Source: Armatimonadota bacterium
GTDB lineage: Bacteria; Armatimonadota; UBA5829; JAUSEB01
NCBI GenBank assembly: GCA_030649165.1
Contig: JAUSGG010000089.1
Coordinates: 1 to 39,075, forward strand
Direction: 5' to 3'
DNA: 39,075 nucleotides
Below, piece after piece: positions 6,157 to 32,180 of this stretch; position 1 is the first letter of the stretch, and the number at the start of each line of letters is the position of its first letter. The notes below the pieces were generated by a model that worked only from the letters and a program-made list of their open reading frames with translations, searched no databases and was not told the origin of the DNA. A program made the position numbers and the translations under genes.

Positions 6157-9100
6157 CTATAGCTCCGTATTGAGATGCTCCCACGGCGGCAGGCCATCGG
6201 GGCGCGTAGGCAAGGGGAACGGCTCGTATCGGAATACATTGCCCGTTATCGCGACCGCGGGGTTACCCTCGGCGTTGTCTTTCGTTCCGGGAACCAGCAG
6301 AAAGCTGGCCGGCCCTTGCGGCGTTGGCTTCTCCCCGAACGTCTCTTTCCTGAGCCGCTCTTCCTCAGCCGTCTTTTCCTCCACGAATACATTCGTCACG
6401 AGGTTCTCCTGTAACATCTCGTTGAATATCAGATTCCCAGTCACAGCGCAGCGCTCCGCCAACAGAATGCAGACCGTTGGCAGGGCGGACTTGCTGCGAA
6501 TCTTATTCGCGTTTACGATCACCGAACTCGCGGTAAAGGCGTCGGTATCCCATACGACCAATCCGGGAAAGGTCGCGCGGTCGCCGGTCGCGGCGCAGAT
6601 CACCTCATTATTCGAGAAATCGAGCGAGAGCGCGGAGTGAACGCCGGTCTTAACTATCGCTTGCAGTTCGATGTCCCCGATTTGATCGTCGATGGCCTGG
6701 ATACTCACTAAAGGCTCCACGTGCGGAATCGGTTTGCGCAGTTCAACGAGGTTCGCCACATCCCCGGTGGGTGGCTCCGTCGCTAGACGTTCAGACCGAA
6801 CGTTAAAGGTCAAGCCGTTGTTGATTACAGCCCGCACAAACGCCCCCCGTTTCAACACTTTTTCATCTGTTTCGGAGATTCGATTCGGAGCGGGAGGCCT
6901 TGCCGTCTTTACCAGCGCCGATCGTCTGAGATCATAATCGTCCGGCAACGGATAGCCTCTTGCCAGCAGGGCGGTGAATTGCAGGACAGGATCGCGCGCC
7001 ACGCCCGACATTACCTCATAGAGACGTGCCGCCGGCTCCGCAACGGTCCTTGGCGCCATGATTTCGGTAGCAGACTTGACGGAAGGCAAAGAGGCCAGAT
7101 CGAACAGACAGAATCCTCCGTAACAGTCTCTCACGGTGTTCGACTCGATCTTTATGGCGCCTGCTGTCGAGAAGATCAGAGCCGCGGCCGCGATCCTCTC
7201 GAAGCAATTGTCCCGGAACAGAGCGTTGTCCAGCTTCGAAAGGACCACACGACCTCCCGCCTCGCCGGCCGCCATTTGGCTGTTCGGTGTCATACCATAC
7301 CCCATCAAGAACCGAGAAGCAGTACGGACATCCTCAGTTGAGAGAAAGCGGTTTCTCTGCACGGTCAGATGATCGCACTCTCCGCTCGCAAGCACGCCGG
7401 CTCCCCAAACCATGCGCTTCTCGCCGGCCGGATAGGCAAACCGGCAGTCCTCGATAGTCAGGTTCGTGCAGTCGAACAGGCGAATCCCTATGCAGACAAG
7501 AAGGTCCTTCAGAACGGCGGCGGCGTTCCCTTCCAAATCCCCGCGCTCTCGGTTTGCCAGCTTGTCCGGCATTTCAACCAGTGGGGGCGCGAATTCGATT
7601 CCGCGCAGCGTTATTCGATCCGCTCCGTCGATGAGGATGAGTCCCTGCTGGAACTTCTCGAGCGCCTTCTCGTCAGCTCTGAGGACCACCCCCTCTCGGC
7701 AGGCTTTCAGAACCAGGTTGGGGTTCTTGCGACCGAGTTTCAACGTCTGGGGCAGGATATACGTTCCAGGCATGAAGCACACCGTCGCGTCTTTGAGTCT
7801 GCTGAGAAGCTTTTGCAGCCTGCCGGCGTCTTTCGGTGTCACAACGTGTGTGCAACAGCCGATCTGTTTCCTTTGGGTAAGCTCGACAAGATTGTCGAAC
7901 TGCTTCCGGCAGTCCGCGAGACGCGAACCGGTGTCGTCCTGCTTCCACTCGATGACCGCCAATGGACACACCCACCGGCGTGGTCCGTCGGGCGGCTGGG
8001 CCTCCTTGAGGTAACGCCCCGGATAGGCCTGTGTGGGCGTCGCGGGACGCAAAGCAACAGTCCAGTAATCGCCGACGTGACAAGTCCCCTCTACGCTCAC
8101 CAACAAGCCAGTGTCTCCGACCTTCTGCTTCTGGGCGGGCAAATCCAATATACCGTTCCAGACACGCAGGAAGACAGAAGGATCGCTGGGACCGCCAGTG
8201 GCCAGCGAGAACTGAATGGGAGTCTGCAATACGACAGTCTGTTTGTCCCTGTCGTAACCCTCGGCCAGTGTGGTGACATGGCCGGTCTCGGCGGCGATAT
8301 ACTGTCCGTTGCTCAACATCACGTCGGATGGGAGAACTTCGACCACCTGAACCGCGCCGGGTTCGTGCGCGGCGTCGACCGGAACAGAATGCAATCTGAG
8401 TGTCTTCTTGTCATTCTGAACATCCACGCGGTAGATGAAAGAAGCGTTGTCGTAACCCCAGAGAAGCTTGTCAGGGGCGGCGACCTGAAAGCGGATCATC
8501 CTGTTTTCCGCATCAAGAAATCCGTAGTGGGCGTCGGGCTGGCATTTGTCCGTGGACGTCTCCGTCTTCTCGAACTCAATGCTCAGTTTCGCCGACGGCG
8601 CCAACCGGCATGTCTTGTCATCGTACTCGAGGCCGGCCTTCCCCCACCAGGCTTTCACCTCCGCAAGAGCGTCACCGCAGGTGTCCGCTTTCGTTGGATA
8701 CCGTACAATGCGCTGAATTATGCGGAGACGGGCCGCGGTATCCGGCCCGCCGAGCGCCACGTCCCTCAGGGCTTCGTCCTCGACTGCGCTGACCTCCTGT
8801 TCCCGCAGTTCCAAGCAGATCAACTCGCGTCCCGTTTGCAGGGCCGGGTCCGGCGTCAGCCAATCGGGCTGCGCGCTGTAAGTGCAAGGCTTCGCCAGCG
8901 ATACGCGCACTCCTCCCACGTACATCGTGCCGGGACCAATCGTCAGATCGCGCGAACCATCGTCCACGGTACCGATGAGATAGCCGTTGTCAGGAGTTCC
9001 GACTGGCCCGACGAAATCGAGCGCGTCATCAGATATCTCCTGGCTTAGAATATCCTGGACTTCGTTTGCGTCGGCGGCGACGGTAACCCTGCCTTGCTGT

Positions 9101-9162
9101 AGAACGACGCCCCGGTATTGCTGGTTCGGGTCGTAGGAAATTCGCTCCCTATCGCTTCCCAT
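6157..9162 (-). CDS. eCIS tail-fibre / receptor-binding protein candidate (1001 aa) with a right-handed beta-helix region
   Basis: It is the last gene of the minus-strand operon, with GAGGAGGG 6 nt upstream of the ATG. The mid/C-terminal region has parallel beta-helix-like repeats (NLTIEDCRFAY...LTVQRNRFLS...ALFRDNCFERIAAAALIFSTAGAIKIESNTVRDCYGG). Its position after the gpI-like gene mirrors P2 gpH. Confidence 0.5.
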   Translation of the reverse strand: MGSDRERISYDPNQQYRGVVLQQGRVTVAADANEVQDILSQEISDDALDFVGPVGTPDNGYLIGTVDDGSRDLTIGPGTMYVGGVRVSLAKPCTYSAQPDWLTPDPALQTGRELICLELREQEVSAVEDEALRDVALGGPDTAARLRIIQRIVRYPTKADTCGDALAEVKAWWGKAGLEYDDKTCRLAPSAKLSIEFEKTETSTDKCQPDAHYGFLDAENRMIRFQVAAPDKLLWGYDNASFIYRVDVQNDKKTLRLHSVPVDAAHEPGAVQVVEVLPSDVMLSNGQYIAAETGHVTTLAEGYDRDKQTVVLQTPIQFSLATGGPSDPSVFLRVWNGILDLPAQKQKVGDTGLLVSVEGTCHVGDYWTVALRPATPTQAYPGRYLKEAQPPDGPRRWVCPLAVIEWKQDDTGSRLADCRKQFDNLVELTQRKQIGCCTHVVTPKDAGRLQKLLSRLKDATVCFMPGTYILPQTLKLGRKNPNLVLKACREGVVLRADEKALEKFQQGLILIDGADRITLRGIEFAPPLVEMPDKLANRERGDLEGNAAAVLKDLLVCIGIRLFDCTNLTIEDCRFAYPAGEKRMVWGAGVLASGECDHLTVQRNRFLSTEDVRTASRFLMGYGMTPNSQMAAGEAGGRVVLSKLDNALFRDNCFERIAAAALIFSTAGAIKIESNTVRDCYGGFCLFDLASLPSVKSATEIMAPRTVAEPAARLYEVMSGVARDPVLQFTALLARGYPLPDDYDLRRSALVKTARPPAPNRISETDEKVLKRGAFVRAVINNGLTFNVRSERLATEPPTGDVANLVELRKPIPHVEPLVSIQAIDDQIGDIELQAIVKTGVHSALSLDFSNNEVICAATGDRATFPGLVVWDTDAFTASSVIVNANKIRSKSALPTVCILLAERCAVTGNLIFNEMLQENLVTNVFVEEKTAEEERLRKETFGEKPTPQGPASFLLVPGTKDNAEGNPAVAITGNVFRYEPFPLPTRPDGLPPWEHLNTEL

Positions 9163-9195
9163 TAAGCCCTCCTCTTCGAGCTGTGTATAAGATCA

Positions 9196-11301
9196 TCACG
9201 TCACGTAGACTATCACCGGAATCAGCCCAAGGGGCATGAATTCCTGGTATTTTATCAGCAGGCTGCGCTCCTTGACGGCATTCTTCTCTCGCGCGAACGC
9301 CCCCATCTCCGCTCCATCCCGCGCTCCCTCCGCGATGGAAGCGTCTACGGTCTCCAGGAGCTGAGCATAACCCGGCCGGCCGAACTCGCGTGAAGTGAAA
9401 AGCGGCTCTTCCGCCGCCAGTTCCACGCTTTCGTACTGTCTGGGCAGGGCGCTACCCGTGACCCACGCGGTGAAGCGCGCGCAGCCGTCCTGCCTATCCT
9501 CCACGGTCGTGAAACCGTTCAGAATGCACTCGCTGGCGCGCAGTCGATGCGCGCGACTCGGCCCCAGAACCGTGCAGCGGCTAAGGACCGCCTCGCCGTG
9601 AGCCAGATCGATGGCCTTCTCGCCCCCGATTGACTGAACGATGCTGTCCGTTATCTTCAACTCCTCGATCTCGCCGGAATCGTCCGTGATCGGCCCCAAT
9701 ATGCAGCGATCTATGGTCAAGCTCCTCACTTGTCCTATGATTCGCAAGCGACAGGGGACCAGGTTCCGGCCGTCCGCGGCCTTCGCATACCCACCGGACA
9801 GCGGATCGGCGTTGCCGGGATCGAGCGTGCAACACCTCAAGGTGACGGCGTCGAAGACACCGTCCACCACGACATCGCCGCCGCTGACAAAGAGACCATC
9901 CAACTCGAGTTCGCTGCCGGCCTTTCCAGTGAAAGTCCACGTGGAATTCTCTTTCAGCCGTATCAACGGACGCTCGTGGTTGTTGGCGCGAATCGCGATT
10001 CGCGTGACTTGGTCCTGATGGCCCACTGTTGCGCCGCTGTTCGGTTCGTAGGTCAGGGAGTCCTGTATGTCGACGGCTCCGACCCAGTTGGCGGCGAGCT
10101 TTGCCAGAGCCGTATCCAGGTCCCCGCCGGACGCTTCGACAGGTTCCGGCTGTTCAAGCAGTGTCCCGTCGGATATCCGACGGTTGTACGGCCCGGCTCC
10201 AATGTCGGACGCAAATCCGTAGTGGTACGACACGTGAATGTCGCTTCCGTCGTCCCCCTCTTGAAGAGTGAACCTGCCCCGCTCCGGATCGATCAGCGCT
10301 CGCTTGGCGCTGTCGCTCGGGTCCACCGTAACCTGATCGGCAGGAATAAGATCGTTCCCGTCCCCTTCGAACAAACCCAACGATTGATTCAGAAGGATAC
10401 CGCTGTTTTGTGAATCCAGCGCCGCGTAAAGGTTCTCTAATTCCACATTGAGCAACGGGCAACTGATCGCCGCGGGGAGCTGCCATTCCGCCGGAGAGAC
10501 CCACTCGTCCCCGACGGGCCTCATGCCCGCGGCAAACAGAGGTATATCGCGGCCTGTCGGGTCGAAAGTGTACTCGTCAGGGTGGTCTTCATCCCCGACG
10601 GGTTTTGCGTGGACAATGGGGAAACTCCTGAGCCGCCAAAGGAAGACGCCGAGGCGCGGAATATTATGCCAGCCGACCTGGCCGCGTCCACGGCGGAAGT
10701 CGGCGCTGTAGGAGAATTCGTCAAACGCGGAATGCGCTTTGCGGCCGGCGTACGCCGCTCTCAAATCCGCATACCCTCCGATGCAGGTTCGAGTCGAGCC
10801 GACGACCAGCCCCTGAGCCGTCTGGAGCATTCGATAGCCCTCCGGGTTCGCGGTTGCGGAAGGCTGACCGATCTCCGGGTCCAGGCTGTGGCGCGTTCGG
10901 CTCATCCGGCGGAAGAACTCGACAACTCGGGCGCTCCAACCGGTGGTGTTCGTGGCAAGTTCTTCCAGCAGCGCGACGGTCCCCTTGCGTCGTCGATAGT
11001 AGATGGTCTTGGCGACGTCCAACCTCTGACCGCGCGCGTCCAGCGCGGCAACCAGGTTGGTCGCCAACAGGTCGCCTATGTAAGGGATGATCCAGTCATC
11101 GCACGTCTCGATGGACTGGTCCTCCCACAGCCGGTCGATGCTCCGTCGCACGATCGCGGCCTGTCGTCCGATACGGTCCACCATCTCACGAAGCGGGCCT
11201 TTTTTGTCGAAGTCGGGCGTGTCTTCCGTGCGATATATCTCCGGCAGAAGATTCCACAACTTCTCGGCATAGTATTCTTCGTAGTTGTCGATATCGATCA
11301 A
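9196..11301 (-). CDS. P2 gpI-like baseplate wedge protein (Tail_P2_I family), Afp12-position
   Basis: The N-terminus matches the gpI family pattern (LLPEIYRTEDTP...DWIIPYIGDLLA...YYRRRKGTVALLEELATNTTGW). The first codon is TTG at 11301, with TAG-A-TTG coupling to the upstream gene. Confidence 0.6.
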   Translation of the reverse strand: MIDIDNYEEYYAEKLWNLLPEIYRTEDTPDFDKKGPLREMVDRIGRQAAIVRRSIDRLWEDQSIETCDDWIIPYIGDLLATNLVAALDARGQRLDVAKTIYYRRRKGTVALLEELATNTTGWSARVVEFFRRMSRTRHSLDPEIGQPSATANPEGYRMLQTAQGLVVGSTRTCIGGYADLRAAYAGRKAHSAFDEFSYSADFRRGRGQVGWHNIPRLGVFLWRLRSFPIVHAKPVGDEDHPDEYTFDPTGRDIPLFAAGMRPVGDEWVSPAEWQLPAAISCPLLNVELENLYAALDSQNSGILLNQSLGLFEGDGNDLIPADQVTVDPSDSAKRALIDPERGRFTLQEGDDGSDIHVSYHYGFASDIGAGPYNRRISDGTLLEQPEPVEASGGDLDTALAKLAANWVGAVDIQDSLTYEPNSGATVGHQDQVTRIAIRANNHERPLIRLKENSTWTFTGKAGSELELDGLFVSGGDVVVDGVFDAVTLRCCTLDPGNADPLSGGYAKAADGRNLVPCRLRIIGQVRSLTIDRCILGPITDDSGEIEELKITDSIVQSIGGEKAIDLAHGEAVLSRCTVLGPSRAHRLRASECILNGFTTVEDRQDGCARFTAWVTGSALPRQYESVELAAEEPLFTSREFGRPGYAQLLETVDASIAEGARDGAEMGAFAREKNAVKERSLLIKYQEFMPLGLIPVIVYVT

Positions 11302-11302: not shown

Positions 11303-13762
11303 CTATCCCCCCGGAGTGACAGTTAGAGACTTACTCGTGAGCTGATAAAACCCACCCTCGCCGGGGTCGTGACGAATGTTGGTGTCCGGCGTCTTAGTGG
11401 AAAAGGAAAGCGCGCTCACGGCAATGACACCCGGAACACTCCGACAAGCGGCATATATCTGGCTGTCGAATATGGACTGCCCGATACGTATGACGTTCGC
11501 GCCAAAGAGTCCCTTGTCGGGATCCAACAACGCGGATCGAACACCGACCTCGACCATCCGGCCATCGTAGTCCGCATCGACGCGAATGGACAAGCTCAGA
11601 TCGACAGGAATCGGGTTCGCCGCTTCAACGACCACTGGACGATTGGGGTCGCCGGCGACCCGCAGCGCGGTCTGCGCGTCCTCTTTTGCCCGCTGATCGT
11701 CTCCAACGTAAACCTTTACCACGCCGCGCTGCTGCTGGGCGTCAAAGGACCAATACGCTCGCGCGCGCGATACGCTGGGAGTCTGCGCGGCAATGGCCTC
11801 ATAGTCGTCGGCTGACACGGCCCGGTTAAAGGCAAGCACGGATCGCGGGGCGTAACGACGAATCTGCTTCGGCGGGTCCGGATCGGCGCCTCCCCCGACC
11901 GACACCGGATTCTTGACGGACCGAAGGTTGGGAATGGGTTGGACAATCTCCGTCAGCGTTCCGGCAGGGACCGGTTCCGCTCCGCTGCCATACCGGTAGG
12001 TCGCTTTCACATTGTCTTTCCCCGTCGGGAGCCTTGCCCAGTTGACGCCGTCCCCGAACAGAACGTGTGTCTTGTTGTCCTCATCTTCTCTGGTCACGAA
12101 CACACGGGCATCGGGCGGTTGTCCGTAGAAACTGGAAACCTCTTTCCACTCGATGCCGTCTACCCAGACTCGCAGCGTGCTCCTGTAGCTCCCGGTCGAA
12201 GACGAGTCTTCGCTCAACAGGTACGTTAGAGGCGACTTCCCGAGGACGAACTCCTGTCCCGCCAGGCTCGCGCTTCCACTGCCAAGCGTCTCAAGCGAAA
12301 CGGTCTGTCCTTGAGAGACGGGGAGCAGCGCGAACAGCAGGCGCAGCGGCGCCGACAGTTCCGGCGGCGACTTGGACTCTGAGGTGATTACAATTGTCGC
12401 CGGCGACTCGGGGACCGTTGAAACCTTCACAACGTCGCCGCGTCCATGCGCGTCTTCTACAAACGCCGCCCCACTTGGAACCCCGTCCCCCGAGGCGGCG
12501 AGCAGCGTGTTGGACCCCCCAGAGATCGTTTCGGCGGGCGCGCCGATCAGCTCTCCTACATCCTGCCAACCGAATAGGACCTGCGCGCAGCCGTCCGGCA
12601 CGCCCTCCGCAAGGTCGATCTGGGTGTGCAAAACCGGAACGGCGGGGGTTGTGCCGGGGTCCTCCAGCTTACCGGGGTTGTTTGCATACCAGACAACCTC
12701 GCGGTAGCCCGTGACGATGACAATATAGAAGTCAGGATCTTCCCCCGGCGTCTCAAACAGCACACGCTCGCCAACGGCAATATCCCGAGACACCCCGACG
12801 AGATCGGCCAAGAAGCGGTCCGCTGGCGGGGGCAGGGGTGTCGCCTGCGCCGAGGGCGCGACGATGTCCGCAACAATCTTCGTATCGAGCTTTGCTATGG
12901 TGGACCCCTTGAGGTCGGCTACCATCTGCCCGCTGCCAGACTTGATAGGCTTCTTGCTTGCCGAGCCGCCGCCGAAGCTAAGCTTCCATATTTTGGAGGA
13001 ACGCGCGCTCTTCAGCAGCCTGTAATCCGCGGCCTTGGCCTCGTTGGGTACCTGCGGAGTTTCAGCAAACCATATCCTCGTATTCGGTTTTCCGCGCAAG
13101 TCCTTCTCCGGCTGCAACTGTTTGACCGTGAGCCATGCGTGGGATTGGTCCCCCGCGAGCAGCAGGCGGTCGCCAATCTTGACGGACGTTATCGCGCCTT
13201 TCAACAGCACACTGTCACCGGTCCCCATCAGATCAGGGTTCGGCGCCAGGTCCACATCCACGACATCCGGCGCTTGGATAACCGTCGCCGCGTCCAGTTC
13301 GAATATCCGCGGCTGCCGGCCCGGCCCGGGCTTGCTCCGAATCTGAAATCCCCTGGGCAGTGTCACCGGCCCTTGCCCCTGGATAAGCGCGGCGAGGTCT
13401 CCCCGCGCTCCTATACCCGGACGCGGACGGTAGCCGAGGACGCGGATGAGCCGCCGGACGCTCTCCGGCAGGCACGCCGTTCGCAGATACGCCTCGTTCG
13501 CGATGCGTTCGTTGTAGAATGTCAAGATGTCCGCCAGATACGCCCACCACTCCGCCATTTGGACCGCCAAATCACCGGTCACGCCGGGACGCCAGTTGAT
13601 GAGTTCCTTCTCAGAGAGCGCCGGATCGAGCGGAAGCAGGAGCGCCTGGCGGAACGCCGCGTAGTCCCCCGTGCGATAGGCGATCGCGGAGAAGCCCGGC
13701 TTGTTGGAAACGGCAATCGGGTGAATGAAAGTATCGCAGGGACAGGCGCGTTCTTTGCTCAT
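11303..13762 (-). CDS. Baseplate-J-like wedge protein, paralogue 2 (gp6/gp7-like; Afp11/12-like)
   Basis: ATGA overlap with the upstream gene, and GGAGGGAGG RBS. Baseplate_J-like motif: DLAVQMAEWWAYLADILTFYNERIANEAYLRTA...LIRVLGYRPRPGIGARGDLAA. Confidence 0.6.
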   Translation of the reverse strand: MSKERACPCDTFIHPIAVSNKPGFSAIAYRTGDYAAFRQALLLPLDPALSEKELINWRPGVTGDLAVQMAEWWAYLADILTFYNERIANEAYLRTACLPESVRRLIRVLGYRPRPGIGARGDLAALIQGQGPVTLPRGFQIRSKPGPGRQPRIFELDAATVIQAPDVVDVDLAPNPDLMGTGDSVLLKGAITSVKIGDRLLLAGDQSHAWLTVKQLQPEKDLRGKPNTRIWFAETPQVPNEAKAADYRLLKSARSSKIWKLSFGGGSASKKPIKSGSGQMVADLKGSTIAKLDTKIVADIVAPSAQATPLPPPADRFLADLVGVSRDIAVGERVLFETPGEDPDFYIVIVTGYREVVWYANNPGKLEDPGTTPAVPVLHTQIDLAEGVPDGCAQVLFGWQDVGELIGAPAETISGGSNTLLAASGDGVPSGAAFVEDAHGRGDVVKVSTVPESPATIVITSESKSPPELSAPLRLLFALLPVSQGQTVSLETLGSGSASLAGQEFVLGKSPLTYLLSEDSSSTGSYRSTLRVWVDGIEWKEVSSFYGQPPDARVFVTREDEDNKTHVLFGDGVNWARLPTGKDNVKATYRYGSGAEPVPAGTLTEIVQPIPNLRSVKNPVSVGGGADPDPPKQIRRYAPRSVLAFNRAVSADDYEAIAAQTPSVSRARAYWSFDAQQQRGVVKVYVGDDQRAKEDAQTALRVAGDPNRPVVVEAANPIPVDLSLSIRVDADYDGRMVEVGVRSALLDPDKGLFGANVIRIGQSIFDSQIYAACRSVPGVIAVSALSFSTKTPDTNIRHDPGEGGFYQLTSKSLTVTPGG

Positions 13763-16117: not shown

Positions 16118-16495
16118 TCAGATCACCCGCACTTCCATTTGCTTGCCCGATAGTGTCCCGATCAGCGTGTAATCTATCCGGATCAGCAGTGTGGACTCGC
16201 CGGCCTCTTCCGGCGGTATAACTTCGACATTGTTCACCTCGATCTTGCCCTCCAGCCATCGGTCCAGCGCCTGGAAGACGAGCAACTGGACCGTGGCGGT
16301 CAACGGCTCGGAAAGCGGCGCGAAGATCAACTGCCGCAGCCCGCAGCCGAACTCCGGCAGGTTCACCCGCTCGCCCGGCGAGGTCAGCAGAACCTGCCGG
16401 ATCATCTGCTCCACGTGAGATTCATATCCGGTCTGCGCCGCCTGCCCCGATGCGGGGTCTATCCGAAACGGATAAGCGTAATCATGACGGTTCAT
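16118..16495 (-). CDS. Baseplate wedge protein gp25/GPW family (Afp9/TssE-like)
   Basis: YPFRIDPASG...LLTSPGERVNLPEFGCGLRQLIFAPL...VQLLVFQALDRWLEGKIEV matches the gp25 lysozyme-like baseplate family. ATG at 16495. Confidence 0.85.
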   Translation of the reverse strand: MNRHDYAYPFRIDPASGQAAQTGYESHVEQMIRQVLLTSPGERVNLPEFGCGLRQLIFAPLSEPLTATVQLLVFQALDRWLEGKIEVNNVEVIPPEEAGESTLLIRIDYTLIGTLSGKQMEVRVI

Positions 16496-16506: not shown

Positions 16507-16881
16507 CTACCTCCCCGACACGCGGGGCTGAGTGAACTGGATAATGGCTGTTCCCTGAACAGCCTGGTCAGCGGCGACGCACAATCCGACGCTCGCCTCC
16601 GTCAGGTCAAAATCGCCGCTGGACTTACTCTGCGCGGCGGGCTGGACCCAGCGCACCTCCACGCACGGATGCGCCACCGTGCCGATGAAGAACGGACATC
16701 CCACGACCAAGAACGTGTCCGAAGATCGCAATAGCGGATCTCCCGCCGCCTTCGATCGAGTATTCGTCGTTATCGCATTGACCGTGCCCCCGTGGGGGCA
16801 GGTTATGACGCTTGATGTTGTAAGTAAGCCTGACAATTGTTGGACCTCTCGCAAACCTATCTGCGCCCGGCATATCTCCAC
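16507..16881 (-). CDS. PAAR-like spike-tip protein (DUF4280 family); start uncertain (GTG at 16881)
   Basis: VITCPHGG...GCPFFIGTVAHPCVEVRWVQ...GLCVAADQAVQGTAIIQF fits the DUF4280 Cys/His pattern. It lies 11 nt upstream of gp25. Confidence 0.6.
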   Translation of the reverse strand: MEICRAQIGLREVQQLSGLLTTSSVITCPHGGTVNAITTNTRSKAAGDPLLRSSDTFLVVGCPFFIGTVAHPCVEVRWVQPAAQSKSSGDFDLTEASVGLCVAADQAVQGTAIIQFTQPRVSGR

Positions 16882-16980
16882 TCAAAGTGTAGGAACATCG
16901 CATCTGCGCTGCTTCCAAGATCGTCAATTGTTCGCATTCGTGTAACGGCCTATTGTTGAGAGCATTCTGCCGTTCTGTCG

Positions 16981-18443: not shown

Positions 18444-18725
18444 TCAGGCGGCCTGCGTCGGCCCACCGAACATCTTCTCGACCACAGCCGTCAAGATCGG
18501 GCCGGCATGGTCAATGATCTCGGCGGAGTAGATCCACCCGCCGCTGTCGTGGCCGCGGATCATGATCGCGCGGTTCTCGTAATCCTCCAGTCGGATTTCG
18601 GCGCTCTCCGGCGGGCGAGCCTCCTGCATCCCCATGCCGGTCAACCTCGCGCTGCCGCCGGCTCCTGCGGGCGACAGACGGTGGAATTCGCCGCCCTTCA
18701 CGATACCGAACATTTCCTCGTTCAT
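18444..18725 (-). CDS. Small hypothetical protein (93 aa), no TM segment; possible immunity/accessory protein
   Basis: ATG at 18725 with AAGGAGG 7 nt upstream (the tool-reported first M at 18728 is TTG). It lies downstream of the CHAP gene. Confidence 0.4.
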   Translation of the reverse strand: MNEEMFGIVKGGEFHRLSPAGAGGSARLTGMGMQEARPPESAEIRLEDYENRAIMIRGHDSGGWIYSAEIIDHAGPILTAVVEKMFGGPTQAA

Positions 18726-18789
18726 CAATGCGCCTCCTTATCAAAATGAAGTATCTGACATCAGACGAGAGACAACAGACCCGTAGTCT

Positions 18790-27443: not shown

Positions 27444-28336
27444 TACCCTTGCCTCAGTCCAAAGAGTGATGTAAATCCGCGCGCAAGCGCTCCGGCAGGC
27501 CGCGGTCTCGCAGGCTGCCGCGCCGGAGGCTTCGGTGTCGGCGCCTCTACGACCTGCACATCAATAGAACCGATGTGTACGGCCGCGGGCTGCTTTGCCG
27601 GCTCTTGCGCGGGCGCGGAATGCGAAGCCGGAGGCGCCGCAACGTTGTCGGACTGGCGCTCACGCGGCGCCGAAGAAGGAAGCAGTATCGGGTGACGGCG
27701 CGCCTGTGAAGGTGTCCCCCTCCTTCTCCTCGGCGTTTCGAGTCGGAGCGCCTCGGCAAGCTCCGCCGGTCGATCCGGTGGGAATACCTCTGGCTTGGGA
27801 GCTGCGCTGGAATTGACGGTCTCAGGCTGACTCAGGCTTTCCGCGCGGCTAACTTCCTTGTGTGAGGTCTCCGCCGGCTTCTTCCGAAGTCGGGCCGCGG
27901 ATGGTATTTCGCCGTCCAATGGAGACAATGGGGATTCCGAATTCGTGCTCGGCTCGCCCGCGAGCGACGCTCGCGTCCGCGGCGGCTTCGGCGACGGCGT
28001 CAGCTTCAGATCCTTCGGTAGCAGAGCGCCGGCGTCGCTGCCGAAGGATGCGCCAGATTGCCGATCCCTCGGTTGCATAGCGCCGGCGTCGCTGCCCAAA
28101 GACGCGCCAAATTGCCTATCCTTCGGTTGCACAGCGCCGGCGTCCCTGCCCAAGGACGCGCCAAATTGCCTATCCTTCGGTAGCAATGCGCCGGCGTCGC
28201 TGCCGACGGGCAGGCCGGATTCCTCGACCGGTGGTAGGGGGTCCTGTGTCCGCACGAACCGGCGCGGCGGCGTCAGTACCTGTAAACCAACGGGCTTCCG
28301 ACCCGCAATCCGGCCAAAGTATGATATCCGGGACAT
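27443..28336 (-). CDS. Pro/Ala/Ser-rich repeat protein with 4 tandem 18-aa repeats (DAGALLPKDRQFGASLGS); possible tape-measure-like or linker component
   Basis: The ORF is tightly coupled on both sides (TGATATG; TAATG). 54-bp tandem DNA repeats at 28013-28228. The composition is low-complexity. No family is recognised. Confidence 0.5.
   Translation of the reverse strand: MSRISYFGRIAGRKPVGLQVLTPPRRFVRTQDPLPPVEESGLPVGSDAGALLPKDRQFGASLGRDAGAVQPKDRQFGASLGSDAGAMQPRDRQSGASFGSDAGALLPKDLKLTPSPKPPRTRASLAGEPSTNSESPLSPLDGEIPSAARLRKKPAETSHKEVSRAESLSQPETVNSSAAPKPEVFPPDRPAELAEALRLETPRRRRGTPSQARRHPILLPSSAPRERQSDNVAAPPASHSAPAQEPAKQPAAVHIGSIDVQVVEAPTPKPPARQPARPRPAGALARGFTSLFGLRQG
28013..28228. repeat. 4 x 54-bp in-frame tandem repeat inside gene 27443-28336
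   Basis: Units start ccttcggtagcagagcgccggcgtcgctgccgaagg..., and each contains a palindromic core. Confidence 0.8.
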
Positions 28337-28337
28337 C

Positions 28338-29108
28338 TCAGGAGCCTCCCTCTTGTCGTATCAACTCCGCGTAGCCGGCGCGCCGCTTAGCGGGGAGGGC
28401 CAGAATCGCCGTTTCCGGCCAGTGGTAGCGCCCCGCCAGCAGATGGACTTCTTCGTACAAGAACTTCGCACGATCGCGCAGTTCCTGGAGCGTGAACCGC
28501 TGAACATCGAAATATACGCTGACTGTCGCCTCGCACTCCGGACATTTGCCCACGGCTTCGTGCGAAAGACTTGGCGCAAGAGCCTCAAGGGCGTTCTCCA
28601 CCCGGCGCAGCATTCGAGGTGAAAGCTGGACCGGCAGAACACAGCGCCGGATCGCCTCCCGGTCCGATTGCGGGTGGCCGGCGACCGCAATCTGATCGGA
28701 CGGTGTCGGCAGGCGGAACGAGACCGGCGCATCGCGGAATCGAAACCATCCCGCCTCGTCCGAGCGCTCGACACCTCGTGGCCGGCGGGGCCGGTGGTGC
28801 GCCAGATAATCCGTAATGCGAAAGTCAACGTCGATCCGGGCGCCGCACTCTTCAGCCGGACATCTTACGTCCGTGAGAATGTGATCGCCAAAGACGTGCC
28901 GTCGCACCATCAACAGCAGGGCCTCGAAGTCCGTTACGCACACAGACTCCCACTCGCAGGCCGCCCCGTCGGCAGGCTGCGCCAGACGCGCGGTCAGCGC
29001 CAGCGCCAGTGCGGAATCGCACTCGCGGGCATCGAGCAGGAGCGTCTCTTCCTCACCGGTAGGCTCCCGCAGGATCACATCCAGTCCGCTGACCGGCAGT
29101 CGAGCCAT
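28338..29108 (-). CDS. Hypothetical eCIS-associated protein with two CxxC...C zinc-ribbon-like pairs
   Basis: CPAEECGARIDVDF and CPECEATVSVYFD. It lies between the tube and repeat-protein genes, in the chaperone/tape-measure region of P2-like order. Confidence 0.45.
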   Translation of the reverse strand: MARLPVSGLDVILREPTGEEETLLLDARECDSALALALTARLAQPADGAACEWESVCVTDFEALLLMVRRHVFGDHILTDVRCPAEECGARIDVDFRITDYLAHHRPRRPRGVERSDEAGWFRFRDAPVSFRLPTPSDQIAVAGHPQSDREAIRRCVLPVQLSPRMLRRVENALEALAPSLSHEAVGKCPECEATVSVYFDVQRFTLQELRDRAKFLYEEVHLLAGRYHWPETAILALPAKRRAGYAELIRQEGGS

Positions 29109-29114
29109 AGGCGT

Positions 29115-29624
29115 CTATAGTTCCTTCGGCTCTTGCAGAGACCGGTCGTGTTCCCAGCCCTCATGCTCCAGCTTGATATGCTCGATGGCAACTGCGTTCG
29201 CCCCGGCGTCCAGGTCGGATATCGCCTGATACTCGGACACCCAACAATTGTGAATTATGTAACGATGTACCGGCTGGCCCGCCTCGTTGAGCAGGTCTAT
29301 CCTCACTTCCCTGCGCAGGCTAGCCAGCGATGATGATGCGGCGCCTTTGTCCAATACCTGCGGCGCGTTGGCCCAATCCTCGAAATCGGGGTCGTGTGTA
29401 AGTCCTCGTTCGAGCGTGATGGGATCGTACTTCGTGCGCCCCATTCCCTTGCGTATGATCGTGTCCCCGCCCTGCTTGTACTCGATCGGGTCCGTCGACC
29501 TCTTCAGGCCGTTCACTTTGCTCACTCCCGCGACCGGCGTGGTGGATTGTCCCAGGAACACGAGGAAACGGAATGTCTTATAAGGGTCGAAACGACTAGT
29601 GTTGACGTTGAACTGCTTGGGCAT
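29115..29624 (-). CDS. Tail tube protein (T4 gp19 / Afp1-Afp5 family)
   Basis: GGAGGAG RBS 6 nt upstream. FRFLVFLG...GVSKVNGLKRSTDPIEYKQGGDT...ITLERG is the typical tube family pattern. Confidence 0.85.
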   Translation of the reverse strand: MPKQFNVNTSRFDPYKTFRFLVFLGQSTTPVAGVSKVNGLKRSTDPIEYKQGGDTIIRKGMGRTKYDPITLERGLTHDPDFEDWANAPQVLDKGAASSSLASLRREVRIDLLNEAGQPVHRYIIHNCWVSEYQAISDLDAGANAVAIEHIKLEHEGWEHDRSLQEPKEL

Positions 29625-29635
29625 GTGATCTCCTC

Positions 29636-31243
29636 CTATGACTGGGCCTGGCCCGCGAGCTGAGCGATCTTGATAATGACGAACTCGGCCGGTTTCAGCG
29701 GCGCGAACGCGACGATGATATTAACGATGCCATTGTCGATGTCCTGCTGCGTGGTTGTCTGGTCGTCGCACTTCACCTGGAATGCCTGACTGGGTGTGGA
29801 CCCCTGGAATGCCTGCTGTCGGAACAGTGAGAGCATGAAGGACTCTATGCTCGTGCGTATAGCGACCCACAACGGTTTATCATTTGGCTCGTGAACCACC
29901 CATTTCAGGTTGTCGTAAAGGGTCTGCTCGATGAAGAGAGCCATGCGACGGACCGGAACATATCGCCAATGCTTAAACGCCTCGTTTTCCGTGACCAGTG
30001 TCCTGGCGCCGAAGACCACGGTTCCTTTTCCAGGGAATGTCCGTAGACAGTTCACGCCCTTCGGATTGAGGGTTCCCTGCCTCATATCGGTCATCCGGCC
30101 GCGGTCCGCCACCCTGGTCGCATTCTTGACGATCGTCTCCAGCCCGGCGGGCGCCTTCCAGACTCCCCGATTGGTGTCGGTTCGGGCGTAGATACCTGCC
30201 ACATAGCCGCTCGGTGGGAGTTCGATAGTATCCCCCGTGTAAGGGTCCTGCGACTCGAGGTACGGGAAGTACAGCGCGCCGTTGGGGCTCTTGGGCATGT
30301 CCACTGTGAGCTTTTCCATCTCCAGCAGACCATCCATCCCGTCGGCGGAGGCATTCGCCGGCGGGTCCACGATCATGAAGGCGCGCTTTCGTTCACAGAA
30401 CGCGAGCCCCTGGCTCAGAACACCGTAGTCGTGGATTCCCGGAAGGACGAGCAGGTTGAAGATGTCGATCTTATCCAGCGAGCTATGTTCACGGAAGACG
30501 GGCGTGAAATCACCGGGGGCGAACATATTCTCATTCTCAAGAGTTGGCCAGACTGACGTCGAGACCTTCCCATCGGAAAGCTGGTAAGCGGTTGCCCCGG
30601 GGTTGAGTGAGACCTTTGCCAGCCCGGACACGTCGTTGATGCGTGTCTCAATGAAGTTCGGGTCCTTCTGGTCGCCCTTTTTGTCCGTCAGCGTGACGCC
30701 GCGATACGTCTCCACCCGTGAGCCGTAGGTGATGGTGATGTCATAGGTCTGCTCGGATAAGTCAGGCTGTTTGACCGTTACGATCATAGGCAGCAAGTCT
30801 ACAGGTTCCAGAGAGGTGAAGAGAACGCCAACGCCGCTGGTTCCTCCCTCGACCAGAACGCTGCCGGCGTCCTTGGTGAGTGGCTCTCCCGAGAGATCGG
30901 TGACTAGTTTCCCCGAGAAATCCTTGAGCTCCTCCCCCTTGTTGGCATAGGGATACTTGGGTCTCAGACCAATGACAAACGCGTTCGCCCCGTCGTTCAG
31001 GAAAAACTGATAGACCGCGTAAGCGACGTCGTTGTCGAACAGGCCGCTCCTGTACAATCCGCCGAACTTTTGCTCGTATTCGGCGAAACTGAGCACGCGC
31101 TCTGCTTGCTCAAACTTCTTGGTCTTGAATGGGTGGGTATAGCCGACAAACACGGTGATGGATGTAGCCGCCCCGGTGATGGTGTGGGTCGCGGGCGGAA
31201 GTTCTTCGATGTAGATTCCCGGATACGTAGGTGTGACCGGCAT
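29636..31243 (-). CDS. Contractile tail sheath protein (Afp2-4-like)
   Basis: The N-terminus TYPGIYIEE is a hallmark of eCIS/phage sheath proteins. GAGGAGG RBS. 535 aa. Confidence 0.9.
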   Translation of the reverse strand: MPVTPTYPGIYIEELPPATHTITGAATSITVFVGYTHPFKTKKFEQAERVLSFAEYEQKFGGLYRSGLFDNDVAYAVYQFFLNDGANAFVIGLRPKYPYANKGEELKDFSGKLVTDLSGEPLTKDAGSVLVEGGTSGVGVLFTSLEPVDLLPMIVTVKQPDLSEQTYDITITYGSRVETYRGVTLTDKKGDQKDPNFIETRINDVSGLAKVSLNPGATAYQLSDGKVSTSVWPTLENENMFAPGDFTPVFREHSSLDKIDIFNLLVLPGIHDYGVLSQGLAFCERKRAFMIVDPPANASADGMDGLLEMEKLTVDMPKSPNGALYFPYLESQDPYTGDTIELPPSGYVAGIYARTDTNRGVWKAPAGLETIVKNATRVADRGRMTDMRQGTLNPKGVNCLRTFPGKGTVVFGARTLVTENEAFKHWRYVPVRRMALFIEQTLYDNLKWVVHEPNDKPLWVAIRTSIESFMLSLFRQQAFQGSTPSQAFQVKCDDQTTTQQDIDNGIVNIIVAFAPLKPAEFVIIKIAQLAGQAQS

Positions 31244-31294
31244 AATTCCTCCTCAAATCTTGTCTTGGATGCCCCCGCTCCGGCGCGGCCCGCG

Positions 31295-32113
31295 CTACCG
31301 GGCCGTCACGGTCGCCGACGCGGGCTTCGCGTCGACCTTCTGTTCACCGCCGCTCAGGACTACAGTCTCCCCCTCTTGAGGAAGAGCATATTTCCCGCCC
31401 GGCGGTTCAGTTACTTTGATGAGATAGGCGGGGTGATCGAGCTTGCTGACGATATCGGCAGCGCTGATCGTCGTGAACTCTTTCTCCCAGGTGACTTCCA
31501 GTTTGAACGTCTTGCTGTTGCTGTCCACGGTAATCTTAGCCGTGGTGTGGTTGCCTGACTGGCCGTGCTTCTTGGCCTCCAACGTAAAGGCTATGGCGTT
31601 TGGATCGCCCGCTTCAGGCACGTCGACCTTTGACGCATCGCTGGCGTTCCCGCCCTTCAGCGGATAGGACCCATCCTCCGGGAGCTTCGACGAAGGCGCA
31701 CCTTTGACGTGAACAAGTCCTGGACTTGCCAGTGGATTCGCGTCCGTTCCCAAGACCGCATCGATGAACGAGGGTGGGGTCTCAATGCTCAAGGCATTAT
31801 GGGTTTCTGTCTTTGTGACGACGGCATCGAAAGTGCCAGACTGGACGTCGACCTTGCTGAAGGTGATCTTAATTCCGTCTCCCGCCGGTCCAGGATCAAC
31901 GGCGTGGATCACCATAGCCGGTTTTGGCGGCCCTGCTTCCGAGGGAACGATCAAGCCAATCTTGACCAGATGCTCGATCAGCTTCTCCGATTCAGGCACG
32001 TCTTTGAGCTGGCCGTTGTCAAAGCGGATGTCTGACAGCGGAGTGGCTTGCAGTTTACCGTCAGCGTCGGTATACTTCACGGGGCCGCGTCCTACAGCGC
32101 CTCTTTCTGTCAT
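31295..32113 (-). CDS. First gene of the operon, beta-rich hypothetical protein (272 aa); start moved to the internal ATG
   Basis: GGAGG lies 7 nt upstream of the ATG at 32113, and the promoter lies immediately upstream. No recognisable family. Confidence 0.5.
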   Translation of the reverse strand: MTERGAVGRGPVKYTDADGKLQATPLSDIRFDNGQLKDVPESEKLIEHLVKIGLIVPSEAGPPKPAMVIHAVDPGPAGDGIKITFSKVDVQSGTFDAVVTKTETHNALSIETPPSFIDAVLGTDANPLASPGLVHVKGAPSSKLPEDGSYPLKGGNASDASKVDVPEAGDPNAIAFTLEAKKHGQSGNHTTAKITVDSNSKTFKLEVTWEKEFTTISAADIVSKLDHPAYLIKVTEPPGGKYALPQEGETVVLSGGEQKVDAKPASATVTAR

Positions 32114-32139
32114 AGATTTCCCTCCTCCCTGATTCTTAG

Positions 32140-32180
32140 TTTGGCGATTATATCCCGCCTCCTGGATAATTGTCAAGTAT
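32140..32180 (-). promoter_or_regulatory. Near-consensus sigma70-type promoter for the eCIS operon (-35 TTGACA, 18-bp spacer, -10 TATAAT on minus strand)
   Basis: Plus-strand tgtcaa at 32171-32176 and attata at 32147-32152 are the reverse complements. The predicted +1 is ~25-30 nt upstream of the ATG at 32113. Confidence 0.5.

What the first reader, a model, noticed from the sequence alone, without database searches (positions are those of the whole stretch)
6157..32180. Complete extracellular contractile injection system (eCIS) in a single 26-kb operon with P2-like gene order
Family-level sequence signatures are visible for the sheath, tube, tandem-AAA+ ATPase (Afp15-like), DUF4255 cap, LysM/gpX, gpD, gpV, PAAR-like DUF4280, gp25, two baseplate-J proteins, gpI and a beta-helix fibre. 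All lie on one strand with overlapping stops and starts. The order (sheath, tube, ..., X, D, V, ..., W, J, I, fibre) follows phage P2. The window has no capsid, portal, terminase, integrase or lysogeny genes, and the ATPase plus DUF4255 cap are eCIS hallmarks rather than phage or T6SS ones. This layout differs from the canonical Afp/PVC order, where tube and sheath are first and the tape measure, ATPase and cap are last. It is likely an under-described eCIS lineage.
Basis: partly seen in the sequence, partly recalled or inferred. Interest (0 to 1): 0.8.

Follow-up and report, generated by a model that had tools for sequence, protein, structure and literature searches.

The report
Phage-tail-like injection system, lineage II
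This is a complete gene cluster for a phage-tail-like protein-injecting nanomachine (a contractile injection system) in an uncultured Armatimonadota bacterium; it is real and intact, but it belongs to a widespread, already catalogued and experimentally unstudied lineage, so it is a new member and not a new kind.

Summary
Window 6157-32176 (minus strand) is one tightly packed operon of 22 genes behind a perfect sigma-70 consensus promoter. It encodes sheath, tube, tape measure, Pvc16-type cap, AAA+ ATPase, tube initiator, split hub and spike (gpD + gpV), a DUF4280/PAAR-like tip, gp25, two baseplate-J proteins, a gpI-like adaptor and a DUF6519 + beta-helix fibre. The flanks are cellular genes. 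There are no head, integrase or tRNA genes, and no close phage relatives.

- The gene order is that of phage Mu, not P2.

The same order recurs in about 65 species-level genomes across many phyla, which indicates horizontal spread. Gene content matches dbeCIS subtype IIa. The fibre and adaptor match the "eBAP5/Tail_P2_I" type described in 2026.

An extracellular mode of action is likely, because the locus has a fibre and no membrane proteins. It is unproven: the closest characterised relatives are cytoplasmic (Streptomyces) or membrane-anchored (haloarchaea).

Verdict: new member of a known kind, moderate interest.

The parts
32147..32176 (-). Operon promoter: TTGACA-18 nt-TATAAT, a perfect sigma-70 consensus
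   Evidence: 12 of 12 matches. Shuffles of the region give a mean of 0.9 sites at >=9/12. It lies 34 nt upstream of the up293 ATG, which has the RBS GGGAGGAGGG.
31295..32113 (-). up293: conserved first gene (272 aa), function unknown. Its C-terminal ~200 aa domain also occurs inside DUF6519 fibre proteins, and its fold weakly resembles the outer domains of tail sheaths.
29636..31243 (-). Contractile sheath (Cis2/Afp2 equivalent)
   Evidence: Pfam Phage_sheath_1 and Phage_sheath_1C. Closest solved sheaths: Streptomyces CIS 8bky (E=9e-62) and H. borinquense 9ezm (E=4.5e-57).
29115..29624 (-). Inner tube (Cis1/Afp1 equivalent)
   Evidence: Pfam Phage_T4_gp19, E=1.8e-35.
28338..29108 (-). T4_baseplate-like protein with four invariant Cys. 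It occupies the position of the Mu/P2 tail-assembly chaperone.
   Evidence: Pfam PF12322, 33.4 bits against a cutoff of 24.5. PHROG_150 'baseplate hub', E=2e-8. Conserved in 64 loci. C83, C88, C189 and C192 are invariant. No similarity to Mu gp41.
27443..28336 (-). Tape-measure candidate (Cis14-like): conserved termini and a low-complexity Pro/Ala-rich middle that includes a 54-bp x 3.6 tandem repeat (28009-28204)
   Evidence: No family hit. In 64 loci the ORF in this slot keeps the N-terminal 'SYL..IA...L.PPR' and the C-terminal 'VHIGSIEVxI...LARGF.S.FGLRQG', while its length varies from 167 to 515 aa. Tandem repeat. The role is inferred from position and behaviour.
26181..27443 (-). Tube/sheath terminator cap (Cis16/Afp16; Pvc16_N, formerly DUF4255) with a C-terminal IPT/TIG-like extension
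   Evidence: Pfam Pvc16_N, E=1.8e-28; TIG is sub-threshold.
24100..26199 (-). AAA+ ATPase (Cis15/Afp15-like): winged-helix domain, degenerate D1 and canonical D2. The likely start is ATG 26184.
   Evidence: Pfam AAA (E=1.7e-30) and WHD. Degenerate P-loop in the N-terminal half. Start codon.
23868..24098 (-). orf76: conserved small gene (76 aa), not in the default ORF list, immediately upstream of the tube initiator
   Evidence: tblastn finds it in more than 45 related loci, always just upstream of cis7, including loci that have no ATPase there. Gene-like GC3. No Pfam or PHROG hit.
23027..23680 (-). Tube initiator (Cis7/Afp7 N-terminal equivalent)
   Evidence: Pfam CIS_tube, E=3.8e-4, below the cutoff for the window copy. 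19 of 25 orthologues hit CIS_tube, best E=4.6e-6.
22741..23016 (-). X91: small conserved baseplate protein, possibly LysM-like (gpX/gp53 class)
   Evidence: Conserved in 79 loci. PHROG_7145 'baseplate wedge subunit', E=4e-4. Weak LysM hints. The single-sequence AF2 model was unusable, pLDDT 58.
21610..22737 (-). Baseplate hub (gpD / gp27-like; Cis8a)
   Evidence: Pfam Phage_GPD. NCBI names it 'contractile injection system protein, VgrG/Pvc8 family'.
21101..21598 (-). Spike (gpV / gp5 OB-fold; Cis8b)
   Evidence: Pfam Phage_base_V, E=8e-29. Start ATG 21598.
19696..21075 (-). Cargo candidate 1: hydrophilic N-terminal leader + DUF4157/eCIS_core (HELTH) + Cys-rich C-terminal domain of unknown function
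   Evidence: Pfam eCIS_core, E=8e-31. Domain layout. The C-terminal domain has no PDB relative by sequence.
18790..19545 (-). PG_binding_1 + CHAP peptidoglycan hydrolase, in the variable cargo island
   Evidence: Pfam. No homologue in any of the 80 related loci.
18444..18728 (-). orf94: small ORF in the cargo island. Gene-like composition and a strong RBS; function unknown.
   Evidence: RBS AAGGAGG. GC3 0.84. No family hit. No homologue in related loci.
16981..18432 (-). Cargo candidate 2: N-terminal leader + DUF4157/eCIS_core (HEIAH) + unrelated C-terminal domain
   Evidence: Pfam eCIS_core, E=4.5e-30. Its leader (aa 7-57) is 40% identical to that of candidate 1. The C-terminal domain has no PDB relative by sequence.
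16507..16881 (-). PAAR-like DUF4280 spike tip (Cis10/Afp10 equivalent). The likely start is TTG 16836.
   Evidence: 16 of 25 orthologues hit DUF4280 and 3 hit PAAR_motif. The orthologue consensus starts at M..LLNTSS, which supports the later start.
16118..16495 (-). gp25/gpW baseplate wedge (Cis9)
   Evidence: Pfam GPW_gp25, E=3e-18.
13759..16116 (-). Baseplate J-like protein a (Cis11a)
   Evidence: Pfam Baseplate_J. The closest solved chain is the Streptomyces CIS baseplate protein 9gtp, E=2e-9.
11303..13762 (-). Baseplate J-like protein b (Cis11b)
   Evidence: Pfam Baseplate_J.
9196..11301 (-). gpI / Mu gp48-like baseplate adaptor (weak assignment), 701 aa
   Evidence: Position after the J proteins and before the fibre. 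Weak Tail_P2_I and Phage_Mu_Gp48 hits in orthologues. Conserved in 66 loci. PMC12923769 reports a Tail_P2_I gene upstream of DUF6519 fibres.
6157..9162 (-). Tail fibre: N-terminal DUF6519 (eBAP5 baseplate anchor) + right-handed beta-helix
   Evidence: Pfam DUF6519 (E=2.7e-12) and Beta_helix (E=3.4e-6). Literature.

Best explanation
The region is a single operon for a phage-tail-derived contractile injection system (CIS) of lineage II, most probably of the extracellular (eCIS) type.

Proposed mechanism:
1. The baseplate forms from the gpD hub, gpV spike, DUF4280 tip, gp25, two J-like proteins and the gpI-like adaptor.
2. The tube initiator and tape measure set the length of a gp19-type tube. 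The tube is wrapped by the sheath and closed by the Pvc16-type cap.
3. The AAA+ ATPase loads the two DUF4157 proteins into the tube through their shared N-terminal leaders.
4. After release from the producer cell, the DUF6519/beta-helix fibres bind a carbohydrate-bearing target surface.
5. The sheath contracts and drives the spike, tube and cargo into the target.

What is shown: gene identities, their order, their conservation, and the absence of phage head genes and membrane-protein genes.
What is inferred by homology with AlgoCIS, Afp and PVC: assembly, ATPase-driven loading, release and targeting.

The confidence of 0.7 applies to the whole statement, including 'extracellular'. That it is a non-phage CIS locus is about 0.95.
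For: - Core families are recovered.
- One strand, tight junctions and a consensus promoter.
- The cap plus AAA+ ATPase plus DUF4157 set is the eCIS-enriched 'core' reported in PMC8213781.
- The order is conserved in about 65 genomes.
- No head, integrase or tRNA genes, and cellular flanks. No close phage relative: the sheath is at most 34% identical, and the hub has no hit in 50,697 phage records.
- The two DUF4157 proteins have a leader + DUF4157 + variable C-terminal domain. This matches AlgoCIS Cgo1/Cgo2, which sit in the tube lumen and are loaded by the AAA+ protein Alg15.
- The fibre type (DUF6519/eBAP5, beta-helix, Tail_P2_I adaptor) is described as an eCIS tail fibre.
- No operon protein has a predicted transmembrane helix. 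The cytoplasmic and anchored CIS, by contrast, use TM adaptors or anchors.
Against: - There is no experimental evidence for any member of this bacterial lineage.
- The closest characterised sheath and baseplate proteins come from a cytoplasmic CIS (Streptomyces) and a membrane-bound CIS (Halogeometricum, clade IIa), neither of which is released.
- The gpI-like and LysM-like assignments are weak.
- No lysis cassette was identified for particle release, unless the CHAP protein does that job.
- The TM screen was a simple hydropathy scan.
- An anchor could be encoded elsewhere in the genome, since the contig is only 39 kb.
Confidence: 0.7

Rival explanations
1. The machine works inside or attached to the producer cell and is not released. 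It could be a membrane-anchored, contact-dependent T6SS-like system, as in Halogeometricum (clade IIa). It could also be a cytoplasmic, stress-triggered cell-death device, as in Streptomyces (IId) or Anabaena tCIS.
For: - The closest solved sheaths are Streptomyces CIS (E=9e-62) and H. borinquense (E=4.5e-57), ahead of Afp/PVC (about 1e-41).
- The closest solved Cis11 is from Streptomyces CIS.
- The layout of two structural subclusters split by a DUF4157-bearing region, with split Cis8 and two Cis11 genes, matches the haloarchaeal cluster description. There, Cis12/13 were proposed to contact the membrane.
- A peptidoglycan hydrolase in the island would also fit self-lysis.
Against: - None of the 22 operon proteins has a TM segment. 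The haloarchaeal system correlates with a 6-TM anchor gene, and Streptomyces uses TM effectors and the TM adaptor Sco4242/CisA.
- The Streptomyces cluster lacks a conventional fibre. This locus has a 1001-aa DUF6519/beta-helix fibre of the class catalogued as eCIS receptor-binding fibres.
- The only neighbouring membrane protein, the deacetylase, is not conserved with the locus.
Confidence: 0.2
2. It is the tail module of a (defective) Mu-like or P2-like prophage, or an R-type tailocin that kills by membrane puncture without protein cargo.
For: Every structural family is shared with myophage tails, and the order is collinear with the Mu tail module.
Against: - No capsid, portal, terminase, integrase, repressor or tRNA on the contig, and cellular genes on both flanks.
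- The locus has a Pvc16-type cap, an AAA+ ATPase and two DUF4157 proteins, which are eCIS-enriched markers.
- The hub has no hit in 50,697 phage genomes, and the best phage sheath is 27-34% identical.
- The same head-less order recurs in about 65 genomes of many phyla.
Confidence: 0.04
3. The locus is a decaying, non-functional remnant.
For: It comes from a MAG and there are no expression data. Three junctions are longer than usual.
Against: - All 22 ORFs are intact with gene-like GC3.
- Most have strong RBSs, and there is a perfect promoter.
- Every structural gene is conserved at 40-75% identity with relatives, in the same order.
Confidence: 0.04

Closest known systems
dbeCIS subtype IIa (Chen et al. 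2019, PMC6899500); characterised representative: Halogeometricum borinquense CIS (PMC11566945)
   Same: - Two Afp11/Cis11 genes, and Afp8 split into gp27-like and gp5-like ORFs.
- An Afp10 (PAAR-like) protein and divergent Afp12/13-like genes are present, and no Afp6 was detected.
- Structural genes sit in two blocks separated by a variable region that carries DUF4157 proteins.
- The sheaths are related (E=4.5e-57).
   Different: - The host is a bacterium, not an archaeon.
- There is no 6-TM anchor gene.
- The fibre is DUF6519 + beta-helix.
- A tape-measure candidate is present, whereas cis14 was not found in H. borinquense.
- The haloarchaeal system is membrane-bound and contact-dependent, and that is unknown here.
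- Placement in the Afp11 tree was not tested.
eBAP5 / Tail_P2_I-type eCIS (PMC12923769, 2026)
   Same: An N-terminal DUF6519 anchor, a C-terminal beta-helix (pectin-lyase-like) region, and a fibre directly downstream of the gpI-like gene and the Baseplate_J genes.
   Different: - That paper associates eBAP5 mainly with Actinobacteriota. Here the host is Armatimonadota, and relatives span at least 8 phyla.
- The Tail_P2_I identity of the adaptor is only weakly supported here.
- The paper rests on predictions, with no particle structure for this type.
AlgoCIS of Algoriphagus machipongonensis (PMC8894135; bioRxiv 10.64898/2026.05.27.728243)
   Same: Cargo built as a disordered N-terminal leader + DUF4157 + variable C-terminal domain. 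The two cargos of one system have similar leaders, and an AAA+ ATPase is encoded in the operon.
   Different: - The sheath is more distant (7adz, E=3e-40).
- The gene order and fibre type differ.
- Cargo loading by the ATPase has not been shown here.
Streptomyces coelicolor CIS (IId; PMC10066040)
   Same: It has the closest solved sheath (E=9e-62) and the closest solved baseplate J protein. Both are lineage II.
   Different: CIS-Sc has a single Cis11 and an unsplit Cis8. It has no conventional fibre, uses TM-containing effectors and a TM adaptor, and is cytoplasmic.
Afp / PVC (subtype Ia)
   Same: The same core parts list: tube, sheath, spike, gp25, J, cap, AAA+ and fibre.
   Different: - Afp and PVC have several sheath and tube paralogues, a fused VgrG-like Afp8 and a single Afp11.
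- Their tape measure, ATPase and cap lie at the 3' end. This follows from the afp1-16 numbering, which tracks gene order (my own knowledge).
- Their effectors lack DUF4157.
- The sheaths are less similar (about 1e-41).
Phage Mu tail module (AF083977)
   Same: Collinear order: sheath, tube, chaperone position, tape measure, hub proteins, spike, gp25-like, J-like, I-like, fibre.
   Different: - Mu has head genes and terminator proteins upstream.
- Mu has no Pvc16 cap, AAA+ ATPase or DUF4157 cargo, and only one J-like gene.
- Sequence similarity is negligible.

Membership tests
Contractile injection system of the eCIS/Afp-PVC superfamily | Contractile sheath and gp19-type tube | tested here: met
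   Pfam Phage_sheath_1, Phage_sheath_1C and Phage_T4_gp19, all above cutoff.
Contractile injection system of the eCIS/Afp-PVC superfamily | Baseplate core: gp25, Baseplate_J, gp27/gp5-type hub and spike | tested here: met
   GPW_gp25, Baseplate_J x2, Phage_GPD and Phage_base_V.
Contractile injection system of the eCIS/Afp-PVC superfamily | Afp16/Pvc16-type cap (DUF4255) and Afp15-type AAA+ ATPase in the locus | tested here: met
   Pvc16_N, E=1.8e-28; AAA, E=1.7e-30.
Contractile injection system of the eCIS/Afp-PVC superfamily | No phage head, packaging or lysogeny genes linked to the tail genes | tested here: met
   None on the 39-kb contig, cellular flanks, no tRNA. Sequence beyond the contig ends cannot be tested.
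Contractile injection system of the eCIS/Afp-PVC superfamily | Particles are released and act extracellularly | not testable with these tools
   Only indirect evidence: a fibre is present and there are no TM proteins.
dbeCIS subtype IIa | Two afp11 copies (a feature of IIa and IIc) | tested here: met
   Two adjacent Baseplate_J genes. Criterion.
dbeCIS subtype IIa | afp8 split into gp27-like and gp5-like ORFs (a feature of IIa, IIb and IIc) | tested here: met
   Separate Phage_GPD and Phage_base_V ORFs.
dbeCIS subtype IIa | afp10 (PAAR-like) present (absent only from IIb) | tested here: met
   DUF4280 or PAAR hits in 16 and 3 of 25 orthologues; the window copy itself has no hit.
dbeCIS subtype IIa | Divergent afp12/afp13-like genes present (a feature of IIa and IIb) | tested here: inconclusive
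   The fibre is clear (DUF6519 + Beta_helix). The adaptor is only weakly Tail_P2_I / Mu gp48-like, and PMC12923769 says eBAP5 loci largely lack true Afp12.
dbeCIS subtype IIa | Placement within the IIa clade of the Afp11 phylogeny | not tested
   No dbeCIS reference sequences were available. The supplement is not held as text.
eBAP5 / Tail_P2_I-type eCIS baseplate | Fibre with an N-terminal DUF6519 anchor | tested here: met
   PF20129, E=2.7e-12, 46.5 bits against a cutoff of 22.4.
eBAP5 / Tail_P2_I-type eCIS baseplate | Tail_P2_I adaptor gene immediately upstream of the fibre | tested here: inconclusive
   The position is right. Only 3 of 15 orthologues reach E=0.011 for Tail_P2_I, and hhalign against P2 gpI gave E=0.43.
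Type VI secretion system (canonical) | Two-part TssB/TssC sheath, ClpV recycling ATPase and TssJLM membrane complex | tested here: not met
   The sheath is a single phage-type protein. The only ATPase is Afp15-like. No membrane protein is encoded in the operon.
P2-like tail gene organisation | Operon V-W-J-I-H-G separate from and preceding FI-FII-E-T-U-D, with X in the lysis/head operon | tested here: not met
   P2 annotation compared with the window order. The window is collinear with Mu.

The most novel reading that the evidence does not exclude
This very widespread bacterial lineage may build a particle that differs from all solved CIS. It would include two conserved, uncharacterised components:
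- up293, a sheath-outer-domain-like module that in some relatives is fused into the fibre.
- The 76-aa protein encoded just upstream of the tube initiator.

Its mode of action may also not be extracellular, given that its nearest characterised relatives are cytoplasmic or membrane-anchored. If so, a CIS type found across soil and freshwater phyla would define a new structural or functional class.
Probability: 0.15. Interest if true: 0.6.

Novelty: new member of a known kind. Interest (0 to 1): 0.35.

Why it matters
The locus documents a complete CIS in Armatimonadota. I found no paper in the searched library that mentions CIS together with this phylum.

It also belongs to one of the most widely spread yet experimentally untouched CIS lineages. 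Cultured carriers are available for study, including Archangium minus, Nitrosospira multiformis Nl18, Polyangium fumosum, Rhodococcus spelaei and Paraburkholderia.

Practical value lies in three things:
- Two defined cargo slots, each carrying DUF4157 proteins with leader sequences.
- A modular fibre.
- Two unannotated conserved components that any structural study of this lineage will need to place.

It does not change the current picture of how CIS work.

Tried and rejected
- **Profile searches against PDB sequences.** Family alignments of X91, the PAAR-like protein, the gpI-like protein and the T4_baseplate-like protein gave nothing significant.
- **hhalign against phage proteins.** Comparisons with P2 gpI, Mu gp48, P2 gpX and Mu gp41 were all non-significant.
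- **Cargo C-terminal domains.** Neither has a PDB relative by sequence or a Pfam hit.
- **Haloarchaeal reference cluster.** I tried to fetch it through the plasmid collection, but no haloarchaeal plasmid was among the matches.
- **dbeCIS supplement.** It is not held as text, so the Afp11 phylogeny was not done.
- **The 187-bp spacer upstream of cis7.** It has no promoter, no terminator and no unusual folding (z = -0.6).
- **Rfam.** No matches in the window.
- **Long antisense ORFs.** They have shadow-frame GC patterns and no family support, so I rejected them as genes.
- **ORFs 16625-17131 and 33421-33798.** Rejected because of low GC3 and overlap with real genes.
- **Upstream polysaccharide deacetylase.** Rejected as part of the system because it is not conserved in any other organism's locus.

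Full report
**Source and frame.** The window is an entire 39,075-bp contig of an Armatimonadota metagenome-assembled genome. The sheath protein's exact match in the public collection carries that name, and its longest contig is 39,075 bp. GC content is 55-65% throughout, with no compositional island. All genes of interest are on the minus strand.

**What is there, 5' to 3' on the minus strand.** A perfect TTGACA-18-TATAAT promoter lies at 32176-32147 (12 of 12 matches). After it come 22 ORFs:
- up293 (31295-32113)
- sheath (29636-31243)
- tube (29115-29624)
- a T4_baseplate-like protein (28338-29108)
- a Pro-rich tape-measure candidate (27443-28336)
- Pvc16_N cap (26181-27443)
- AAA+ ATPase (24100-26199)
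- orf76 (23868-24098)
- CIS_tube tube initiator (23027-23680)
- X91 (22741-23016)
- gpD hub (21610-22737)
- gpV spike (21101-21598)
- DUF4157 protein a (19696-21075)
- PG_binding_1+CHAP (18790-19545)
- orf94 (18444-18728)
- DUF4157 protein b (16981-18432)
- DUF4280/PAAR-like protein (16507-16881)
- gp25 (16118-16495)
- Baseplate_J a (13759-16116) and Baseplate_J b (11303-13762)
- gpI-like protein (9196-11301)
- DUF6519 + beta-helix fibre (6157-9162)

Junctions are -19 to +51 nt except for three longer gaps. Long antisense ORFs have the GC1>GC3 shadow pattern and no family support. The flanks encode an SPFH protein, a VIT-VWA protein, a polysaccharide deacetylase, a bacterial alpha-2-macroglobulin and AMMECR1. 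There are no tRNAs and no Rfam matches.

**Checking the weakly supported genes.** Several ORFs had no Pfam or NCBIfam hit. I mapped all window proteins onto 80 related loci retrieved with a hub-protein alignment, built family alignments and scanned every member.
- PAAR-like protein: 16 of 25 orthologues hit DUF4280.
- Tube initiator: 19 of 25 hit CIS_tube.
- X91: only weak LysM or 'baseplate wedge' signals.
- 701-aa protein: only weak Tail_P2_I or Mu gp48 signals. The hhalign comparisons were not significant.
- ATPase: one canonical AAA module plus a relic P-loop upstream.
- Tape measure: assigned from behaviour. In 64 loci the ORF in that slot keeps conserved N- and C-terminal motifs, while its low-complexity middle varies from 167 to 515 aa. 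The window copy contains a 54-bp x 3.6 tandem repeat.

**Conservation and spread.** The order (up293)-sheath-tube-T4bp-TMP-[cap-ATPase]-orf76-Cis7-X91-gpD-gpV-[cargo]-PAAR-like-gp25-J-J-gpI-fibre recurs in about 65 species-representative genomes. These include Acidobacteriota, Cyanobacteriota, Myxococcota, several proteobacterial classes, Actinomycetota, Planctomycetota, Chloroflexota and Armatimonadota. Hub identity is 54-68% whatever the phylum. The one other Armatimonadota locus (L030, 64%) is no closer than the cyanobacterial or acidobacterial ones, which points to horizontal transfer.

Thirty-nine loci carry the cap and ATPase in the middle, as here, and 25 do not. Among the 8,000 sheath candidates that were scored, 6,234 reached E<=1e-20.

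**Not a prophage tail.** Besides the missing head and lysogeny genes, the hub protein has no hit in 50,697 phage genomes, and the best phage sheath is 27-34% identical.

**Gene order.** P2 has V-W-J-I-H-G, then FI-FII-E-T-U-D, with X elsewhere. The window is collinear with the Mu tail module: sheath, tube, chaperone, tape measure, gp43, hub, spike, three wedge proteins and fibre. Into that frame it inserts the cap, the ATPase and the cargo.

**Cargo.** Two slots vary among relatives:
- Spike to PAAR-like gene: occupied in 12 of 69 loci, with inserts of 1-3 kb. The window's 4.2-kb insert is larger than any of these.
- ATPase to Cis7: occupied in 10 of 46 loci.

The inserts usually carry DUF4157. 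The CHAP protein and orf94 have no counterpart in any related locus, so they are locus-specific.

The two DUF4157 proteins share a hydrophilic leader (40% identity over about 50 aa) and the HExxH-containing DUF4157 domain (41% identity). Their C-terminal domains are unrelated. AlgoCIS Cgo1 and Cgo2 have the same architecture. Those proteins sit in the tube lumen, need the N-terminal region for loading, and depend on the AAA+ protein Alg15. DUF4157 is an eCIS-enriched marker that is linked to toxins. The functions of the two C-terminal domains remain unknown.

**Classification.** The text of Chen et al. 2019 gives subtype criteria:
- Two afp11 copies occur in IIa and IIc.
- Split afp8 occurs in IIa, IIb and IIc.
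- afp10 is absent only from IIb.
- Divergent afp12/13 occur in IIa and IIb.

The only subtype that fits all four is IIa. The one characterised IIa system, from Halogeometricum, is likewise described as two structural subclusters separated by a DUF4157-bearing region. I could not run the Afp11 phylogeny.

The fibre matches 'eBAP5' (DUF6519), which is reported to sit downstream of a Tail_P2_I adaptor and often to end in a pectin-lyase beta-helix. [quoted passage not shown] In line with that, the 2021 eCIS survey lists Desulfocarbo with one genome and no eCIS. Yet Desulfocarbo indianensis carries a full syntenic locus (L050).

**Mode of action.** Three things argue for an extracellular mode: a large fibre of the eCIS class, no TM segment in any operon protein, and no conserved membrane-protein neighbour. 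One thing argues for caution. The nearest solved sheath and baseplate proteins come from the cytoplasmic Streptomyces CIS and the membrane-bound haloarchaeal CIS. I put extracellular action at roughly 0.65-0.7 and anchored or intracellular action at about 0.2.

**New small observations.**
- orf76 is conserved in more than 45 loci, directly upstream of Cis7. It is present even where the ATPase is encoded elsewhere.
- up293 leads the operon in 27 loci and has 502 cluster-level relatives. Its C-terminal domain is embedded in DUF6519 fibre proteins in other organisms (33% identity, E=4e-20) but not in this window's fibre.

**Verdict.** This is a real, complete, probably functional lineage-II CIS operon. 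It is a new member of a known and recently catalogued kind, and its gene order is Mu-like, not P2-like. Interest is moderate.

Noticed in passing
window 23868-24098 (-): An unlisted 76-codon gene sits directly after the ATPase stop codon. It is conserved in more than 45 related loci, always just upstream of the tube initiator, and has no family hit.
   Followed up: yes
window 31295-32113 (-); P0319 residues 486-691: The C-terminal domain of up293 also occurs inside DUF6519/beta-helix fibre proteins of other organisms (a gene-fusion link). Its predicted fold weakly resembles the outer domains of tail sheaths.
   Followed up: partly
window 32147-32176 (-): A perfect 12/12 sigma-70 consensus promoter (TTGACA-18-TATAAT) heads the operon. 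A perfect consensus promoter on a large, costly operon may imply strong or tightly repressed expression.
   Followed up: partly
window 28009-28204: A 54-bp tandem repeat (3.6 copies, 88% matches) encodes an 18-aa repeat inside the tape-measure candidate. This could be a way to vary particle length.
   Followed up: partly
L050 (Desulfocarbo indianensis SCBM): This genome carries a full syntenic locus, yet the 2021 eCIS survey (PMC8213781, Supplementary Data 6) lists the genus with 1 genome and 0 eCIS. Earlier catalogues may have missed this lineage.
   Followed up: partly
L018, L019, L023, L025, L027, L070 and others (25 loci): A second architecture lacks the cap and ATPase between the tape measure and Cis7. 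In L019, L025 and L070 an ATPase or DUF4157 gene lies upstream on the opposite strand.
   Followed up: partly
plasmids NZ_CP109276.1 and NZ_CP109103.1 (Streptomyces anthocyanicus): Streptomyces plasmids encode a Cis11a homologue 48% identical over 99% of its length. This looks like a second, plasmid-borne CIS of this lineage in a genus known for its chromosomal IId system.
   Followed up: no
window 28338-29108 (-): The T4_baseplate-like protein has four invariant cysteines (C83, C88, C189, C192) across 25 orthologues, which suggests a zinc-binding site.
   Followed up: no
window 16981-18432 (-), residues ~240-335: The C-terminal domain of DUF4157 protein b contains His-rich motifs and 'NCNEFVHEVY'. 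From memory this resembles the permuted papain-like LRAT/NlpC-P60 catalytic motif. No database hit supports it.
   Followed up: no
window 23681-23867: A 187-bp spacer with hairpins separates orf76 from Cis7. Relatives have only about 25 bp here. No promoter or terminator was found, and the folding energy is ordinary (z = -0.6).
   Followed up: yes
window 33881-38804 (-) and 3543-6098 (+): The neighbours are a 1,469-aa bacterial alpha-2-macroglobulin, whose listed start overlaps an AMMECR1 gene by about 120 bp, and a VIT-VWA protein. Neither is conserved with the CIS locus.
   Followed up: no
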